From positions 1 to 59,088 of IMG/VR virus record IMGVR_UViG_3300035388_000078: 59,088 nt of DNA; one strand, written 5' to 3'. Shown one piece after another: positions 33,001 to 39,000 of the stretch; the first letter of the stretch is position 1, and the number at the start of each line of letters is the position of its first letter. Origin of the DNA: a virus. Its lineage: Duplodnaviria > Caudoviricetes. The position numbers are program-made.

Positions 33001-36000
33001 CCGGTTCACCCATTCCTCAGATATCAGCTGTGATTCTGATTGTGCAGGGTACCGGCCAAGGACCATATAAGAGAAAGCAGGCTGAATTATTTTATAAATA
33101 CCGGCCTGCAATGGTTGATATGGTGAATTATCGCTGGTCCTGCAAGCAATGGCACCCACCAGGAAATCAGGAAGAGTAAAACAGGAATATTCTGAATAAG
33201 TTTCATCATCCATTAACGGCCGGCACCATTCATTGATTCTCCTGACCGTCACCTCCCTGGACACCGCACCTTTGATAACAGCCTCACCCGAAATAACATT
33301 AGGATGAGTGAAAGCAGTTAGGGGAACAACATTGGCCGTTTTGTCACTTTCCATTCTGTGTGGGGTTCCGGCTGCTGCCCTGGGGTTGAACATAATCAAT
33401 AATCTGACATGGCCACCCGTCATACATGATTCGGTACCGGCATAAACCTCATCAGGAATTGCGTCACCCTCGTCAAAGATAAAGAGCATGTACGGTGCAT
33501 GTTTCCCGGAGAACTTGGCCTCACGTTCTTTAGATGTCCCGGACGATGGGATAGCAACACCCTTGATGAACTCAAGAGGATTGCGCTTGATGGAAAGATT
33601 TTTACAGGTATCCCCAGCAAAGATCCCCGGGAATTTAGCGGTCAAGCTGCCGATCTCTCCCCAAAGAAGTGTTTCAAGGTTGTCTTTGGGTGGGGCGGCT
33701 GCCGTATATACCTGGGCCCCTGGATGACACTTATAAAACCATGTCGCAACCCGGGCGGCTGCATGAGTTTTTCCCGTGGCATTAGCAGACTTGGCAATGG
33801 TGATGACATTATCCCGAACTGACTCCATCATAACCTTGACATCATTGGTGTATGACTCTTCAAAGGTGTTTTCACAAAACCCAATCGGATCAGCCTGATA
33901 TCCCAACATTTCATTGTTTACCCGGGGATCCTGCAAACTGGAAAGAATCATATCAGGGGAGAAGGATGATAAGATGGAATCAACAATACTGTTATTTTGA
34001 ACAGTATCAAGCATCTTTACCCACCTTTTTAGCCATGGCCTTTTCTCTAATTACTTCCCTGACTTCCAATGGCAACATATTCAGGACCTCATTCAAGGCC
34101 ATCTGCTTACGAGTTGTCTCATCGGTGTCCGGATCATTGAGATTGTATGCCTCGCGTTCAAGCCCGATCCTTTGAGCACGGACACCGGCCAGGTTTTTAA
34201 GAGTCGTGGCCTTTTCAGAAACCGTAAGATTGCAATTAGTGGGCGTGACATTGCCCAGGTAAGACGAAAAATGTGTTTTCTGCGGAGTGTTTATCAATTC
34301 CTGAAGCAAAACGGCCTCATGCGCCAATAATTCATTTATTTCTTTACGATGTTTAATGACGATATTAGAACCGGCTTCGGCAGCGTTCTCTATAATATCG
34401 TTATCAGAAAAACCCGGTTGGTCACAACCTGTGACTGAGTTTGTGACCAATTTCTCTTTAACCCGGGCCAGAACCTTCTTAGCCAGGTTCCGCGTCCATT
34501 TCCCAGCCTTGGCTTTCTTTATAATTGCCGTGTGGTGAACAGTTTTTTTCCAAACCTGTGAATTGATGTGATCAGCTTCATACTGAGCACAAATATCATT
34601 GAGCGATAAAGAACCGGCACGATATAAAGGTTCAACGGAATCCCAATCAATAAATTTTCTTTTTGCTGTTGTTTTTTTCTTGACGGTCAAAACAATTATT
34701 CCTTTATGGGTTCCCTTTTAGAATAGAAATCCCATAAAAAAACAATTTAATCAAATTAGGATTTAAAAATATCTCTCATATCAACCTTTTTTATCTGATT
34801 TTTTAAAAAGTTTCTTAATCAACACACAACCCTGAAGCAGGCCAACCCCAATTGAAACAAAAACTAAAATTGTAGCCGGGTCAGGAAGATAAGCTATAAT
34901 CAGACCGACCGCCGAAACAAACCAACCACTATTTTCATTCATGATCGTTTATCCCATCTGGCTTTCCCTGGCCTTACGTCAAGGTGTGTAAAATCGTCAT
35001 AACGACCTATACCATACGAATCAGGGTATTCACTCTCAAGATAGTCTGCAACCTCATCAGGGGGCACCTGGACCCATATACATTTCCTTTGCACATATCT
35101 TTCCACGATGAAATCATCTGCTTTACCGGTCATATGCCAGGAATGAGAAGAGAATGGGATATAATCCGGGTTGTTCTCATGCTGAACTTTTTCATTATAT
35201 GCCCGGCATCTGCAACCACTGGTAGGTGTTACCCTCGCCCTGCTATATTTCTCAGTAAAATGAGCCCTCATGTCCTCCTGGACCCGTATAAGCTCCCCAT
35301 CAACGGTATCTTGTCCACAACCACACCGGCAAGCAAACTCTGATCTCCAAAAATGTTTTGATAATTGTCCTTGTTTCATAAAAAAAGCCTTCCCTTTTTG
35401 GTTTCCATATGGGAAGGCTATAATAAAATCTTATAATTTTAACAAGTTTTTATGTTATTTTTCCATCTGATCCTTATACAAATTCAATGCAGCCTCTACG
35501 ATATCTACCTGTTTCTTTTTCTTTTTTTCTGAATAATTTAGCAACCAATCCTTTAATTCCGGATCTATTCTAACATTGAGAACTTTTTTTGGGTTTGGTT
35601 TCCGGTACCCCGTTTTTCTACCTGCCCCTTCTCTTTTGCCGCCTATTGCCATCTATTCCCCTTCCATCATTAATTCATCAAATCCAGCGGCACAAATGCC
35701 TGTCAACTGATAAAAAAGTTTGTATGTTTGGTAATATGTCCAACCACATCGGTATTGTAATTGCTCTGCAATCTTAACGGCCATCTTTGCATCCTGTTTT
35801 GCTACGGCTATATTAACGGCTTCATAGATTTTCATATCATATTCCCCGTTAAAAAGTAAATGCAATCAGTGTCACAACAGTACCGGCCAAAATCCCAGCA
35901 ATGAGGGCTAAGGCCATTTCCATGGCGTTTGCAACATCATTTTTTACGGCATCCTCTTTCTTTTTGTTTTCTTCCCGGTATTGATTCCAGTACCCGCTTG

Positions 36001-39000
36001 ATATACTCTTGTCCATGGTAAATTCCTTTCTCAGCTTTGGGGGTTTATTGTGTTGCCCTGGGGGAAGGTTGCCGCCTCCCCCTGGGGCTTTTCATTTCCT
36101 GGAGTTAAACGTCATATCCCCATGTTTGATCGATGATGATGTAGTTTTTACGGCGGTTGACATAGGCATGGTCTTTGAAAAACCTGCCCACGCCGCCAGA
36201 ATGTGTCCCTATGTTTAATTTATCAAGGATTTCATCATTGGTCAGGTGGGAGAGCCCTTCTGATTTGTATATCCAATAATTAACCCCACCATCCATGTCA
36301 TCTTTGCTGTAATGCCGGGTGTGGGTCTTGACCAGGACCGGGGCTTTGATTTTAAAGGCATCGTTAAGGGCCGAGATTAACCATGGGTCAGTGGGGGCCT
36401 CACCTTCAAAATCCCGGAAGGAATCATACATAGAACAGTTATATTCTTCGGAATATCGATTTATTTCTTCTATGGCTGCATCAAAAATGCTTTGCCGGGG
36501 GAAATTTTTTAAAGCTGCTCTTGCTTGTGCGATACGTTCTTCCATTGTTAAGCCTCCATTTCTTTAATGATTTCTTTGATAAGATCAGTCATTTTTAATA
36601 TTCATCCCCCTCAATCGTTCCCCTTGCGATTACTTCACCCTCGTCATCATATGCGACAGAGGTCCAGCAATTGGCATCTTCCCGGGTGGTGACAACCTCG
36701 AACACATCCCAATTTTCCTCTTCCAAAAGGGTTTCAATCCATTCTTCAATAGTGGTTATGGCGGCGTCATCATCATCTTCCGTTATCCATTTTTCAGTGT
36801 AAGTGTCTCCGTATTCTAATTCCAGTTCACATTCATAATTGACGGTCTTGACAGTGATATCCATGTTGATTTCCTCCATTGAGACTGCTGCTGCTTCGAT
36901 CATTTCTGTTACTGTCATTTTCTTAGACTCCTAAGCTATTGATTAAATATTTTCTGGTATAAATTCTTGCCTTGTGTTCATTTCGGGGAAGATCTGCCAT
37001 TGCTTCTTGGGCATCTTCTTTATATTCCCATCCGGATTGAACACGACCATTCTGGACAACAAAATGGGTGTAATGCTCATTGTCATAAACCAGGGAATGA
37101 TTGTCCTGGCGAATAGTGTCATTATTAACGTGGATGGAACTACAAGAAAAAACCGTTTTAGGATACTTGACCATAATCTTTTTTATCTGCTGGTGGGGGC
37201 TTACATCTGCATCAAACCATTCCTTGTAGCACATCATTTTCCCTGCTGGCAGCGTGATGGTATCCCCTTCCTTCAAAGTGGTTGTAACCTGGTATTTATC
37301 ATACAGGGCCGTGTGAAATTCATCTATGATACTTTCGGCGGTGTATCCACAAGAGTCCGGGGATACATATTCCTTAGTGTCGATCGGTTTATCATCCCAA
37401 GCCGTGTCCTCTCTCCATTTAATTGTTTCTGGATCAGCCTTCAATCCTTCGATTACCCACATTCTGCCGTCTTTGTTTTCTTTGAGCGTGTAATCTGTCA
37501 TTTTTTTTAAGCCTCCTTGATTTTAGGTTTTTTCCTTTAGTATGAAGGCTTTCAGATTATATGTCAATACATTTAATCAATTTTATTTAAAACTCTTATC
37601 AATGAGGCTCTTGGTATATTAATTACTTGACTCTTGATCCGGTAAAAGTTGCCCACACTTAGAACACCTTTTGGGTTCCGGTGGTGGCTCTTTTCTTAGT
37701 TCTGATATGTAAACTTCTGGTACAGCCCCATTGTCTGACCGAACCGTAACAAAGGGGCTACCAAGCTCTTTTGGTTCAAATTCAGCATAACAATACCACC
37801 CAACCCTTTTCCTATCTGGATGCCAAAGAACATCCCCATAAAACACTGGAGTTCCACTATCCAAAGTAAATAAAAATTTTGCCATTTTAGTGTCCTTCAA
37901 AATCAACTTTATACATTATATAATATCATCGAAAACAATCGGTACCCGGGCCTGAAGCTCTGCAAGCAAAGGTTTCATTAATGCGCTCATCTGAGGATGG
38001 GCAGCTTTAGAACATCGAAGGGAAAAGATGTGCCGCCATTCCCTGATATTGGCTTTCCAGACGATTTCAGTTTTAAGGGAATTTGGGAGAACTTCCCTGG
38101 CTTGTTCCGGACGCCAACCACTATCTAAAAGGCGCTTATACATGATCTCAGAATTCAAGCATGCATCCATCCAAGTATATTCAGTGTCGGTGTACTTTAT
38201 TGATTTTAGTTTTTTAAAAGAAGCACCGACTACGTCTTTGTCGCACCAGACAGGACGAATAAATTCCATTTCACCGTCATACTTTACATACCGGGTGGAT
38301 TCCTGGGCAAAAGAAGATAGTCTGTGCCGTACAATCTCATGGGTCACACCACGATTTGTAACGAACTTGACAATTATATTACCAAATTCAATCATGGCGT
38401 GGTGGCCTCTCTTAATCAGCATTTCAACAAATTTTTCAGCGCTATCCGGTGTTATTTTGTCCTCTGATTTGTAGCAAGTCCGCCCTGCCCGTTCCATCAT
38501 CAGAAGGATATTTTCCGGCAGGGATAAAATTTCATGTGACTGTTCGATAATTTTCATTTTTTTCTCCATATATTATAAATTGTTGACATTGAGCAATTAG
38601 CTTTAATAGAAGCTTCACGAGCTGTTATTTTACCTTTACATTTTTTTATTTTCTTGATGGTTTCAACATTATTTAAAATTTTATTTTTGTTATTCCCGCC
38701 ACCTGGCCTTCTTGCCCATCCCCATCTTTCCATCCAAAAACAGATAGGTGGTGGAGTCTTGTCAAGCAGGTCACTAATTTCTATCAAATTGCGGTCATGG
38801 GTATAATAATGGTCATAAACAAGTTCAGAGACATATTTATATCCATGAGATTCTACTGCCACATAAAGGTCGTCTTTGTAAGTAAATTGGACCATGGCAT
38901 CCAGGGCTTTGAAATCTGGTTTTTTCTTTTCCTTTTTTTTTGCCGGCATTATAGTTTTCCTTGTCGTTTTTTAATTTTGGTTCCTTTCATCCCAGACCGA

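What the first reader, a model, noticed from the sequence alone, without database searches (positions are those of the whole stretch)
35455..37578. acr-aca-like operon with unknown cargo genes
Seen: a near-consensus promoter (TTGACA-17-CATACT) has a 10-bp-arm inverted repeat (9/10 match) across the -35. It is followed by five small unrecognised ORFs, mostly with strong RBSs, a terminal RHH gene and a terminator. The unit sits between the replication and lysis modules. Established: anti-CRISPR operons have this layout, with Aca repressors binding inverted repeats at the promoter. Inference: a self-regulated anti-defence operon whose cargo genes may be new inhibitors.
Basis: partly seen in the sequence, partly recalled or inferred. 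Interest (0 to 1): 0.74.

Follow-up and report, generated by a model that had tools for sequence, protein, structure and literature searches.

The report
RHH-ended orphan-gene cassette in a prophage
A tmRNA-integrated prophage carries a 2.2-kb cassette with its own promoter and terminator, five unknown acidic proteins and a small DNA-binding repressor-type gene; it looks like a self-regulated accessory operon, but nothing yet shows that it blocks host defences.

Summary
On the minus strand there is a TTGACA-17-CATACT promoter with a 9/10 inverted repeat across the -35. It is followed by ORFs of 192, 107, 146, 55 and 60 aa plus a 14-aa mini-ORF, then a 65-aa ribbon-helix-helix (RHH) gene and a strong intrinsic terminator. 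The unit lies between ThyX/primase/helicase and M15 endolysin/holin/terminase.

Promoter and repeat are each only modestly above chance (about 5-6% of shuffles). Their overlap supports a real, insulated unit. So does an RNA stem that hides the first gene's Shine-Dalgarno (SD) only in read-through transcripts.

The RHH fold is supported by PHROG hits and an AlphaFold model whose structural neighbours are all RHH proteins. The protein has no antitoxin-like tail.

The cargo is orphan: Pfam, PHROGs, NCBIfam, PADLOC, PDB and 5.8-billion-protein word searches found nothing. The one exception is a roughly 50-aa C-terminal domain of ORF A, which recurs in two conjugative elements and three viral contigs. 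All five cargo proteins are acidic, and ORF B has net charge about -29.

Guilt by association gave no anti-defence neighbour in 22 viral loci. The terminator abuts the endolysin start codon, so the lysis genes depend on read-through. That keeps a late-gene-control reading alive.

Verdict: a plausible autoregulated accessory operon. The anti-defence role is unproven.

The parts
37598..37610 (-). 5' arm of a long-range RNA stem, present only in transcripts that read through from the upstream genes
   Evidence: the 126-nt read-through RNA folds at -24.2 kcal/mol, z -3.69, 0 of 200 shuffles as good. Also seen as a 21-nt, 76% complementary repeat.
37555..37578 (-). Operator-like inverted repeat GATTAAATGT-ATTG-ACATATAATC (9/10) spanning the -35
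   Evidence: 293 of 5000 shuffles give such a repeat. Unique in the window.
37539..37567 (-). Sigma-70-like promoter TTGACA-17-CATACT; predicted start near 37532
   Evidence: 1075 of 20000 shuffles of the intergenic reach 10/12.
37509..37521 (-). 3' arm of the long-range stem; contains the SD (AAGGAGG, 37518-37512) of ORF A
   Evidence: The 5' UTR of a promoter-initiated transcript is unstructured (-1 kcal/mol).
36923..37501 (-). ORF A, 192 aa, pI 5.4. The N-terminal two thirds are orphan. The C-terminal ~50 aa (about 36926-37084) is a conserved mini-domain with the motif Y..FVV...SGWxYxEDAQ
   Evidence: pLDDT is 78-93 in the C-terminal domain only.
36595..36918 (-). ORF B, 107 aa, extremely acidic (33 D+E against 4 K+R, pI 4.05); orphan
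36548..36592 (-). 14-aa mini-ORF whose 3' end carries the SD of ORF C
   Evidence: Too short to judge as coding.
36105..36545 (-). ORF C, 146 aa, pI 5.5; orphan
36055..36088 (-). GC-rich hairpin in the 88-bp C-D gap, with no U tract
   Evidence: Context z -1.24, not significant. Role unknown.
35849..36016 (-). ORF D, 55 aa: charged N-terminus and one C-terminal hydrophobic helix
   Evidence: The transmembrane reading is from the sequence by eye.
35653..35835 (-). ORF E, 60 aa, pI 5.3; orphan
35455..35652 (-). 65-aa RHH protein with an N-terminal GGKREGAGRKTG basic arm; no extension after helix 2
35436..35465 (-). Weak promoter-like site TGGAAA-18-TAAAAT with an upstream TG, overlapping the RHH stop
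   Evidence: 9/12. Not above chance on its own.
35380..35419 (-). Intrinsic terminator: 9-bp stem, 16-nt loop, 7 U. Its 3' arm holds the endolysin SD (GGGAAGG, 35394-35388). The endolysin ATG (35379) follows the U tract directly.

Best explanation
The cassette is a self-contained, RHH-autoregulated accessory operon of a temperate, tmRNA-integrated, probably Desulfobacter-type prophage.

Shown at the sequence level:
- a sigma-70-type promoter and an intrinsic terminator bracket six orphan ORFs and a terminal stand-alone RHH gene;
- an RNA stem hides the first gene's ribosome-binding site only in transcripts that arrive from upstream, so the cassette should be translated only from its own promoter.

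Inferred:
- RHH dimers bind the AT-rich inverted repeat over the -35, helped by the basic N-terminal arm;
- the RHH is the last gene, so repression sets in after a burst of cargo synthesis, as in acr-aca operons and P22 arc-ant;
- the cargo (five acidic small proteins, one of them DNA-mimic-like in charge) most likely acts on host or competitor functions such as defence systems. I put the specifically anti-defence part at about 0.25.
For: Promoter, repeat, ORFs and terminator all verified.

Coding potential is positive for all six ORFs.

RHH support:
- phrog_876 'transcriptional repressor' 7.2e-8 and phrog_3180 'Arc-like repressor' 1.4e-5;
- AF2 model with mean pLDDT 82.6 and helices 31-44 and 48-64;
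- the top Foldseek PDB rows are RHH proteins, including CopA_SO, ORF56, CopG, TacA, ParD, PutA, AmrZ, Arc and omega, with TM by target up to 0.85.

Insulation: the SD-sequestering stem appears only in read-through RNA (z -3.69, 0 of 200 shuffles).

Acidity: 5 of 5 cargo proteins have pI below 5.6, against 15 of 46 other phage ORFs. ORF B has 33 acidic and 4 basic residues.

ORF A's C-terminal domain recurs in a T4SS conjugative element beside DUF4121, RadC and a DUF4942 methyltransferase, and in three viral contigs.

An RHH-type Aca with an operator repeat in the promoter is published (Aca14, PMC13551039; passages read).

In the one related prophage, L026, the same replication-to-TerS position holds a protein with a Lar-like restriction-alleviation PHROG hit (7.9e-11).
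Against: Promoter and repeat are individually weak (5.4% and 5.9% of shuffles).

No relative of the cassette exists to test conservation. RHH, A and C found only themselves among 5.8 billion clusters. There are no IMG/VR or GenBank phage hits.

0 of 135 scanned neighbours in 22 RHH-like viral loci is annotated as anti-defence. Many of those matches rest on the N-terminal motif only and are small-terminase-like.

Only 1 of 10 small RHH-like ORFs is followed by a terminator, so the layout is not a family trait.

GC content is not atypical.

The terminator abuts the endolysin ATG, so the cassette is not independent of late expression.

No PADLOC, Pfam, NCBIfam or PDB match for any cargo ORF.
Confidence: 0.45

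Rival explanations
1. The cassette is a delayed-early or middle operon of the phage's own temporal programme. Its last gene (the RHH) or another cargo protein controls the late operon that begins at the terminator (endolysin, holin, terminase, structural genes), by regulated read-through or by action at the weak promoter-like site 35465-35436. This would parallel lambda Q-pR'-tR' or Mu C-Plys in geometry.
For: The endolysin ATG follows the U tract directly, and its SD lies in the terminator's 3' arm, so there is no room for a promoter.

My own scan found only four intergenic minus-strand terminators in the window: 56739, 35386, 24834 and 698. This one therefore marks the early/late boundary.

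No >=9/12 promoter-like site was found in the 90-bp holin-TerS gap.

No other late regulator was recognised in the phage.

The 10-mer TTGATTAAAT of the operator arm recurs exactly in the holin-TerS gap and at the A/B junction. That is 3 exact copies, all within 2.9 kb, against 0.59 expected; 3 of 100 shuffles reach 3.
Against: No cargo ORF matches Q, RinA, ArpU, Mor/C or Ogr families at E <= 0.1.

The 10-mer was chosen after seeing it, and with one mismatch allowed it is not enriched (10 found against 15.4 expected).

RHH proteins are mostly repressors.

The promoter-like site is only 9/12.
Confidence: 0.25
2. The cassette is a prophage-expressed module that protects the lysogen: superinfection exclusion, abortive infection or a toxin-antitoxin-like unit. 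The small membrane protein D or another cargo protein would be the effector and the RHH its regulator.
For: Own sigma-70-type promoter and terminator inside a prophage.

A 55-aa protein with a C-terminal hydrophobic helix.

The RHH's nearest structural neighbours include antitoxin DNA-binding domains: CopA_SO, TacA, ParD.
Against: No PADLOC hit at E <= 0.1 for any ORF and no toxin family hit.

The RHH ends at helix 2 with no toxin-binding tail.

The RHH is the last gene and is not paired in the usual antitoxin-toxin order.
Confidence: 0.12
3. There is no special unit. The promoter-like hexamers and the repeat are chance matches in AT-rich spacer DNA, and the ORFs are ordinary orphan 'nin-region-like' genes of one long rightward-type transcript. 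The RHH would then regulate something else.
For: Each signal alone appears in 5-6% of shuffles.

The promoter scan finds fewer sites than shuffles do.

About 40 distinct places in the window hold a 10-bp arm, one-mismatch-or-fewer repeat (79 overlapping windows).

GC content is like the rest of the phage.
Against: Promoter, repeat, the largest local intergenic gap, a strong SD at the right distance and the SD-occluding long-range stem (0 of 200 shuffles) all coincide. The cassette also ends at one of very few strong terminators.
Confidence: 0.13

Closest known systems
acr-aca operons, in particular those with the RHH regulator Aca14 (PMC13551039)
   Same: A strong promoter carrying an inverted repeat, several small unannotated acidic proteins, and a small dimeric-type DNA-binding repressor gene at the 3' end. 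An RHH rather than an HTH regulator has a published precedent.
   Different: No cargo ORF or neighbour of a homologue is a known Acr or anti-defence gene. The repeat lies on the -35, whereas the Aca14 repeat lies on the -10. Aca14 is described as having a long helical extension, and this protein ends at helix 2. Sequence relation to Aca14 could not be tested. Six cargo ORFs over 2 kb is longer than typical acr operons (recalled).
Phage P22 immI arc-ant operon (recalled knowledge)
   Same: A phage RHH repressor autoregulates a promoter that drives a burst of a protein acting on another element's regulation.
   Different: Arc is the first gene of its operon, and here the RHH is last. There is no sequence similarity beyond the fold (Arc rows rank 27-48).
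CopG of plasmid pMV158 (PDB 2cpg, 1b01, 1ea4)
   Same: A small stand-alone RHH. From recalled knowledge, CopG binds a pseudosymmetric element overlapping the -35 of its own promoter. Structural neighbour with TM by target 0.66-0.70.
   Different: CopG is the first gene and controls plasmid replication. 20-23% identity. CopG has no N-terminal GGKRxGAGR arm.
Phage 'morons' (promoter-gene-terminator inserts; recalled definition)
   Same: Own promoter and own terminator, wedged between two core modules.
   Different: Composition is not atypical. Presence or absence among relatives cannot be assessed. The terminator doubles as the boundary element of the lysis genes.
Lambda Q-pR'-tR' late control region (recalled knowledge)
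   Same: A regulator gene ending next to a promoter-like site, an immediately following terminator, then lysis and packaging genes.
   Different: No Q-like protein was detected. The promoter-like site is weak. The terminator sits only about 10 nt from the putative start.

Membership tests
acr-aca (Aca-regulated anti-defence) operon | Promoter with an inverted-repeat operator | tested here: met
   TTGACA-17-CATACT with a 9/10 repeat over the -35. Each signal is found in only about 5-6% of shuffles. Binding was not tested.
acr-aca (Aca-regulated anti-defence) operon | Co-encoded small DNA-binding regulator | tested here: met
   65-aa RHH as the last gene
acr-aca (Aca-regulated anti-defence) operon | Regulator belongs to a described Aca family (Aca1-14) | not testable with these tools
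   No Aca profile library or Aca14 sequence was available. Pfam, NCBIfam and PHROGs give only generic RHH, Arc-like or RepB-type hits.
acr-aca (Aca-regulated anti-defence) operon | At least one cargo gene homologous to a known Acr or anti-defence protein | tested here: not met
   No hit at E <= 0.1 in Pfam, PHROGs or NCBIfam. PDB sequence searches of A, B, C and E gave nothing credible. The fold search of ORF A reached Z 4.3 at best. B, C, D and E were not modelled.
acr-aca (Aca-regulated anti-defence) operon | Regulator homologues neighbour known anti-defence genes | tested here: not met
   0 of 135 scanned neighbours (of 184 ORFs >= 55 aa within 2.6 kb) in 22 viral loci carry such an annotation. 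PHROGs covers anti-defence genes poorly.
acr-aca (Aca-regulated anti-defence) operon | Cargo inhibits a defence system | not testable with these tools
   Needs experiments. The host genome is not available.
Ribbon-helix-helix (CopG/Arc/MetJ) superfamily | Strand-helix-helix fold | tested here: met
   AF2 pLDDT 82.6 with helices 31-44 and 48-64 after an extended segment. The top Foldseek rows are RHH proteins with TM by target 0.66-0.85, but E-values are only 0.1-1.
Ribbon-helix-helix (CopG/Arc/MetJ) superfamily | Profile match | tested here: met
   phrog_876 at 7.2e-8 and phrog_3180 Arc-like at 1.4e-5. Pfam RepB-RCR_reg scores 15.9 bits, below its cut-off of 21.
Type II toxin-antitoxin with RHH antitoxin | Antitoxin has a C-terminal toxin-binding extension and an adjacent toxin-family gene | tested here: not met
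   The protein ends at helix 2. No toxin family was found among the neighbours.
Moron | Own promoter and terminator between core genes | tested here: met
Moron | Atypical base composition; absent from close relatives | tested here: inconclusive
   GC is 0.37-0.44, like its surroundings. The only relative, L026, differs over the whole upstream 10 kb.

The most novel reading that the evidence does not exclude
The cassette is a translationally insulated, RHH-timed counter-defence island that encodes up to five entirely new inhibitor families in a phage of sulfate-reducing Desulfobacterota. One would be a DNA-mimic-like protein of net charge about -29. Another would be a previously undescribed mini-domain (Y..FVV...SGWxYxEDAQ) shared by phages and the establishment regions of conjugative elements. 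The same RHH would also touch late-gene control through TTGATTAAAT half-sites.
Probability: 0.18. Interest if true: 0.7.

Novelty: new member of a known kind. Interest (0 to 1): 0.4.

Why it matters
If the cargo proved to be anti-defence, the cassette would give several new inhibitor families from a poorly studied host group. It would also extend the recently described RHH-type Aca logic to a second, unrelated RHH lineage.

Two features are easy to test and possibly general:
- the two SD-occluding hairpins at the cassette borders, which suggest how a phage insulates an accessory operon from its own polycistronic transcription;
- the conserved ORF A mini-domain, shared with conjugative elements.

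As it stands, this is a reasonable candidate list and not a discovery.

Tried and rejected
- Close relatives of the cassette. blastn against GenBank phages found none. IMG/VR scans with the RHH and ORF A found none. Word-index searches with RHH, A and C found only themselves. tblastn of the RHH and the ORF A domain against phages and plasmids found none.
- Synteny through anchor genes. TerS relatives L002 and L003 are not syntenic. The TerL relative L026 shares TerL, the next gene and the giant protein, but not the upstream 10 kb. L027 is too short. The endolysin has no close relatives.
- Six-frame searches of 161 genomes of the family of L026's genome. ORF B: 0 of 161. ORF C: 1 of 161, with four stops inside, taken as noise. 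The ORF A-domain profile found 0 of 401 genomes sampled from the phylum.
- ESM Atlas. The ORF A model has pLDDT 0.46 and no usable neighbour. The ORF C model has pLDDT 0.55, and its neighbours are HATPase_c-like at TM <= 0.46. That is below the bar, so no family is named.
- The PDB 'Bagel' hit to ORF A residues 121-160 (8.8e-8, with 0 stretches passing alone) was rejected as a repeat-inflated score.
- Second operator copies: none for the full site. Half-sites are not enriched.
- The gap at 30897-31164, which holds a 10/12 promoter-like site, is coding.
- The C-D hairpin is not significant.
- The complex-prediction job was not used, because no protein-protein binding is claimed.

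
Full report
CONTEXT

The window is a 59,088-bp IMG/VR provirus record, estimated 94% complete.
- A tmRNA gene (58204-58559, minus strand; Rfam 188.7 bits) and SmpB (58624-59088; Pfam 2.7e-58) are host genes at one end.
- An integrase-like gene (56846-58183, plus strand) sits next to the tmRNA 3' end.
- All other recognised phage genes run on the minus strand. In order: early and replication genes (two DNA methyltransferases, exonucleases, Dda-like helicase, primase/helicase, primase, ThyX), the cassette, M15 endolysin, a 53-aa two-helix holin-like protein, TerS, TerL, portal, head genes, an SU10-type adaptor, and a 4,698-aa ORF.
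- The only fairly close relative found is a prophage in an uncultured Desulfobacter MAG (L026, TerL 77% identical). The host is therefore probably a Desulfobacteraceae bacterium. This is an inference.

Promoter. TTGACA (37567-37562), 17 nt, CATACT (37544-37539) is a 10/12 match.

Inverted repeat. GATTAAATGT-ATTG-ACATATAATC (37578-37555) pairs 9 of 10 and spans the -35.

Neither signal is strong alone.
- A 10/12 promoter appears in 1075 of 20000 shuffles of the 117-bp spacer.
- A repeat of this quality appears in 293 of 5000 shuffles.
- The generic scan finds fewer promoter-like sites in the region (11) than in shuffles (14.7 +/- 4.0).

What lifts them is coincidence. They overlap each other. 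They lie in the largest local gap of a tightly packed gene array. They sit about 31 nt upstream of a consensus SD (AAGGAGG) and the ORF A start.

ORFs. A to E and the RHH gene all have SD-like sequences. Their in-frame codon-usage scores (0.11-0.36) are at or above those of 18 recognised genes of the same phage (0.06-0.23). Overlapping antisense ORFs score -0.16 to 0.00.

Terminator. A perfect 9-bp stem plus seven U (z -4.35, 0 of 200 shuffles). In my own scan it is one of only four intergenic minus-strand terminators in the window: 56739, 35386, 24834 and 698.

NEW ANATOMICAL POINTS

First, RNA that reads through from the upstream genes folds so that 37610-37598 pairs with 37521-37509, which contains ORF A's SD (-24.2 kcal/mol, z -3.69, 0 of 200 shuffles). 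The 5' UTR of a transcript started at the predicted promoter is unstructured (-1 kcal/mol). This fits a design in which the cassette is translated only from its own promoter.

Second, the endolysin ATG (35379) follows the terminator's U tract with no spacer, and its SD (GGGAAGG, 35394-35388) is the 3' arm of the terminator stem. There is no room for a promoter. The lysis genes must therefore be transcribed through this terminator. The transcript would come either from the cassette promoter or from a weak 9/12 promoter-like site that overlaps the RHH stop codon (35465-35436). The cassette is thus wired into late expression and is not a free insert.

Third, a perfect 300-bp direct repeat (37615-37914 = 50252-50551) duplicates exactly one small gene (88-95 aa). 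It ends 4 nt from the cassette's promoter spacer. Its flanks are unrelated (30-32% identity).

THE RHH GENE

- PHROGs gives 'transcriptional repressor' (7.2e-8) and 'Arc-like repressor' (1.4e-5).
- Pfam gives only a sub-threshold RepB-RCR_reg hit.
- The PDB sequence search gives ArtA at E 0.25.
- A full HMMER search of 1.84 billion representatives found 16 proteins at E <= 1e-3, about 12 of them 57-68 aa long and 39-56% identical. They share an N-terminal GGKRxGAGRP.G arm and a strand-helix-helix body.
- AF2 on that alignment gives mean pLDDT 82.6, with helices 31-44 and 48-64 after an extended segment.
- The top Foldseek PDB rows are RHH proteins (CopA_SO, ORF56, CopG, TacA, ParD, PutA, AmrZ, Arc, omega) with TM by target up to 0.85, although E-values are only 0.1-1 for so small a domain.
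- The protein stops at helix 2, so it lacks the toxin-binding tail of RHH antitoxins.

GUILT BY ASSOCIATION

A motif-seeded scan of IMG/VR gave 22 loci. I scanned 135 neighbours with PHROGs: ORFs of at least 72 aa from 2.2 kb upstream to 2.6 kb downstream, taken from 184 ORFs of at least 55 aa within 2.6 kb.
- None is annotated as anti-CRISPR or anti-restriction.
- In 5 of 22 loci (L009, L015, L019, L023, L024) the matched 83-110-aa ORF sits directly upstream of TerL. These are small-terminase-like proteins that share only the N-terminal motif.
- In 3 loci it adjoins a DNA methyltransferase (L010, L012, L025).
- In 2 loci it adjoins an integrase (L006, L021).
- In 1 locus it lies near Ant and HicB (L014).
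- Of 10 small RHH-like ORFs inspected, 1 has a terminator within 150 nt.

A profile search of 161 Desulfobacteraceae-family genomes gave weak hits in 24 (best 3.5e-6). I looked at 5 of the 12 loci returned, by ORF listing only. By eye, one lies beside a ParE-like pair, two lie beside methyltransferase-like ORFs, and one is a TacA/TacT-like pair. These labels come from no tool.

The caveats are that PHROGs annotates anti-defence genes poorly and that many matches are not true orthologues.

THE CARGO

- Family libraries: no hit at E <= 0.1 in Pfam, PHROGs, NCBIfam or PADLOC worth naming.
- Word-index searches found only the query itself for A and C.
- PDB sequence searches gave nothing credible for A, B, C or E.
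- All five cargo proteins have pI below 5.6, against 15 of 46 other ORFs of the phage. ORF B has 33 D+E and 4 K+R in 107 residues. This charge profile is typical of DNA mimics and of many Acr proteins (recalled), but it is not diagnostic.

The one lead is ORF A's C-terminal ~50 residues. Six-frame searches found 71- and 73-aa stand-alone homologues in 2 of 161 family genomes (E 1.7e-5 and 5.8e-5 per genome).
- The alignment has invariant Y144, S156, G157, W158, Y160, E162, D163, A164 and Q165 across five proteins.
- One of the two loci (L035) is a T4SS conjugative element with VirB8, CagX, TrbI, coupling protein and TraF peptidase. There the gene lies between a DUF4121 gene and a small membrane protein, within 8 kb of RadC, a ParE-type pair and a DUF4942 methyltransferase.
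- The other locus (L036) has a related layout, and a 65-aa ORF with a GGARPGSG arm lies 5 kb away. That ORF matches the window's RHH only over 12 residues.
- Small ORFs that look RHH-like by eye follow the domain gene in L035, L036 and L037. No family library confirmed this.
- The domain also occurs inside a 453-aa ORF of a viral contig (L037) and in a 153-aa ORF of two AT-rich T4-like contigs (L038, L039).
- It was not found in 401 genomes sampled from the phylum, nor in GenBank phages or PLSDB plasmids by tblastn.
- AF2 models only this domain with confidence (pLDDT 78-93; hairpin, helix, strand, helix).
- The best structural match is Z 4.3, which is a common arrangement.

Its occurrence in establishment-type regions of conjugative elements is compatible with a role at entry into a new host, but it shows nothing more than that.

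HOW IT MOST LIKELY WORKS

Shown: the sequence elements, the RHH fold (as a model), and the two SD-occluding structures (as predictions).

Inferred: RNA polymerase starts near 37532. Cargo and RHH are made from one mRNA. RHH dimers then occupy the repeat over the -35 and shut the promoter. This gives a pulse, as in acr-aca operons (Aca14 is an RHH example with a repeat over the -10; PMC13551039, passages read) and in P22 arc-ant (recalled). Transcripts from upstream cannot translate ORF A.

What the cargo does is open. I rate counter-defence or another host- or competitor-directed role as the single most likely class. I put the anti-defence claim itself at only about 0.25.

The main rival is that the cassette is the phage's delayed-early unit and that its regulator or terminator gates the lysis and late genes. 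The terminator-endolysin geometry supports it. So does the exact recurrence of the arm-containing 10-mer TTGATTAAAT in the holin-TerS gap and at the A/B junction: 3 exact copies within 2.9 kb, 0.59 expected, and 3 of 100 shuffles reach 3. That motif was chosen post hoc and is not enriched at one mismatch.

COMPARISON AND NOVELTY

The layout works like an acr-aca operon. Membership is not shown.
- Two layout features are met: the promoter repeat and the terminal regulator.
- Two evidence features were tested and not met: a known anti-defence cargo gene, and anti-defence neighbours of regulator homologues.
- Membership of a described Aca family could not be tested.

RHH-type Aca regulators are already in print, so the regulatory idea is not new. 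The RHH lineage with the GGKRxGAGR arm, the orphan cargo and the ORF A mini-domain are new members at most. I found no paper on this cassette. My literature searches were limited, on Aca/RHH and on leading-region anti-defence.

VERDICT

Interest is moderate (0.4).

Noticed in passing
window 37615-37914 and 50252-50551: A perfect 300-bp direct repeat, 12,637 bp apart. It duplicates exactly one small gene (88-95 aa, C-terminal CxxC; weak DUF6011 hit) together with its SD. The copies bracket the replication module, and the flanks are unrelated. One copy ends 4 nt from the cassette's promoter spacer. It could be a recent duplication, gene conversion or a recombination substrate. An assembly artefact is not excluded.
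   Followed up: partly
window 40880-41001: Five tandem 21-bp iterons (TTCTGGTGAGTTTTTGAATGA-like) inside or at the start of the ORF upstream of the primase/helicase. Likely the phage replication origin.
   Followed up: no
window 58204-59088: tmRNA (188.7 bits) and SmpB are host genes. The prophage integrase abuts the tmRNA 3' end, so this is a tmRNA-site integration. No att repeat of at least 14 nt was seen at the other end.
   Followed up: partly
window 3449-17545: A single 4,698-aa ORF on the minus strand. A 2,548-aa homologue (65% identity over 1,114 aa) lies in the related Desulfobacter prophage L026, downstream of TerL. An SU10-type adaptor (24147-24812) suggests a podovirus with a giant, possibly ejected or tail-associated, protein.
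   Followed up: no
window 34745-34754, 36939-36948, 37571-37580: The 10-mer TTGATTAAAT occurs exactly three times, all within 2.9 kb: the operator arm, the A/B gene junction (opposite strand), and the holin-TerS gap. 0.59 copies are expected, and 3 of 100 shuffles reach 3. The motif was chosen post hoc.
   Followed up: partly
L035 (G057:C5:4000-22000) and L036 (G058:C315:1-12000): L035 carries T4SS genes (VirB8, CagX, TrbI, coupling protein). L036 shares a 408-410-aa ORF and a TraF-type S26 peptidase fragment with it. Both look like conjugative-element regions of Desulfobacteraceae genomes and carry the ORF A mini-domain as a 71-73-aa gene. L035 has DUF4121, RadC, a DUF4942 methyltransferase and a ParE-type pair nearby. 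L036 has a short methyltransferase-like ORF (MTS 1.1e-4, below cut-off). Small RHH-like ORFs (by eye) follow in both. These may be an establishment or leading-type region.
   Followed up: partly
L009, L015, L019, L023, L024: 83-110-aa ORFs with the same N-terminal GGKRxGAGRP arm (three match phrog_15261) sit directly upstream of TerL. The arm is therefore shared between RHH regulators and small-terminase-like proteins.
   Followed up: no
window 48394-50229: A 611-aa ORF just downstream of the second repeat copy has an N-terminal Gp3-like 'recombination directionality factor-like' domain (1e-26).
   Followed up: no
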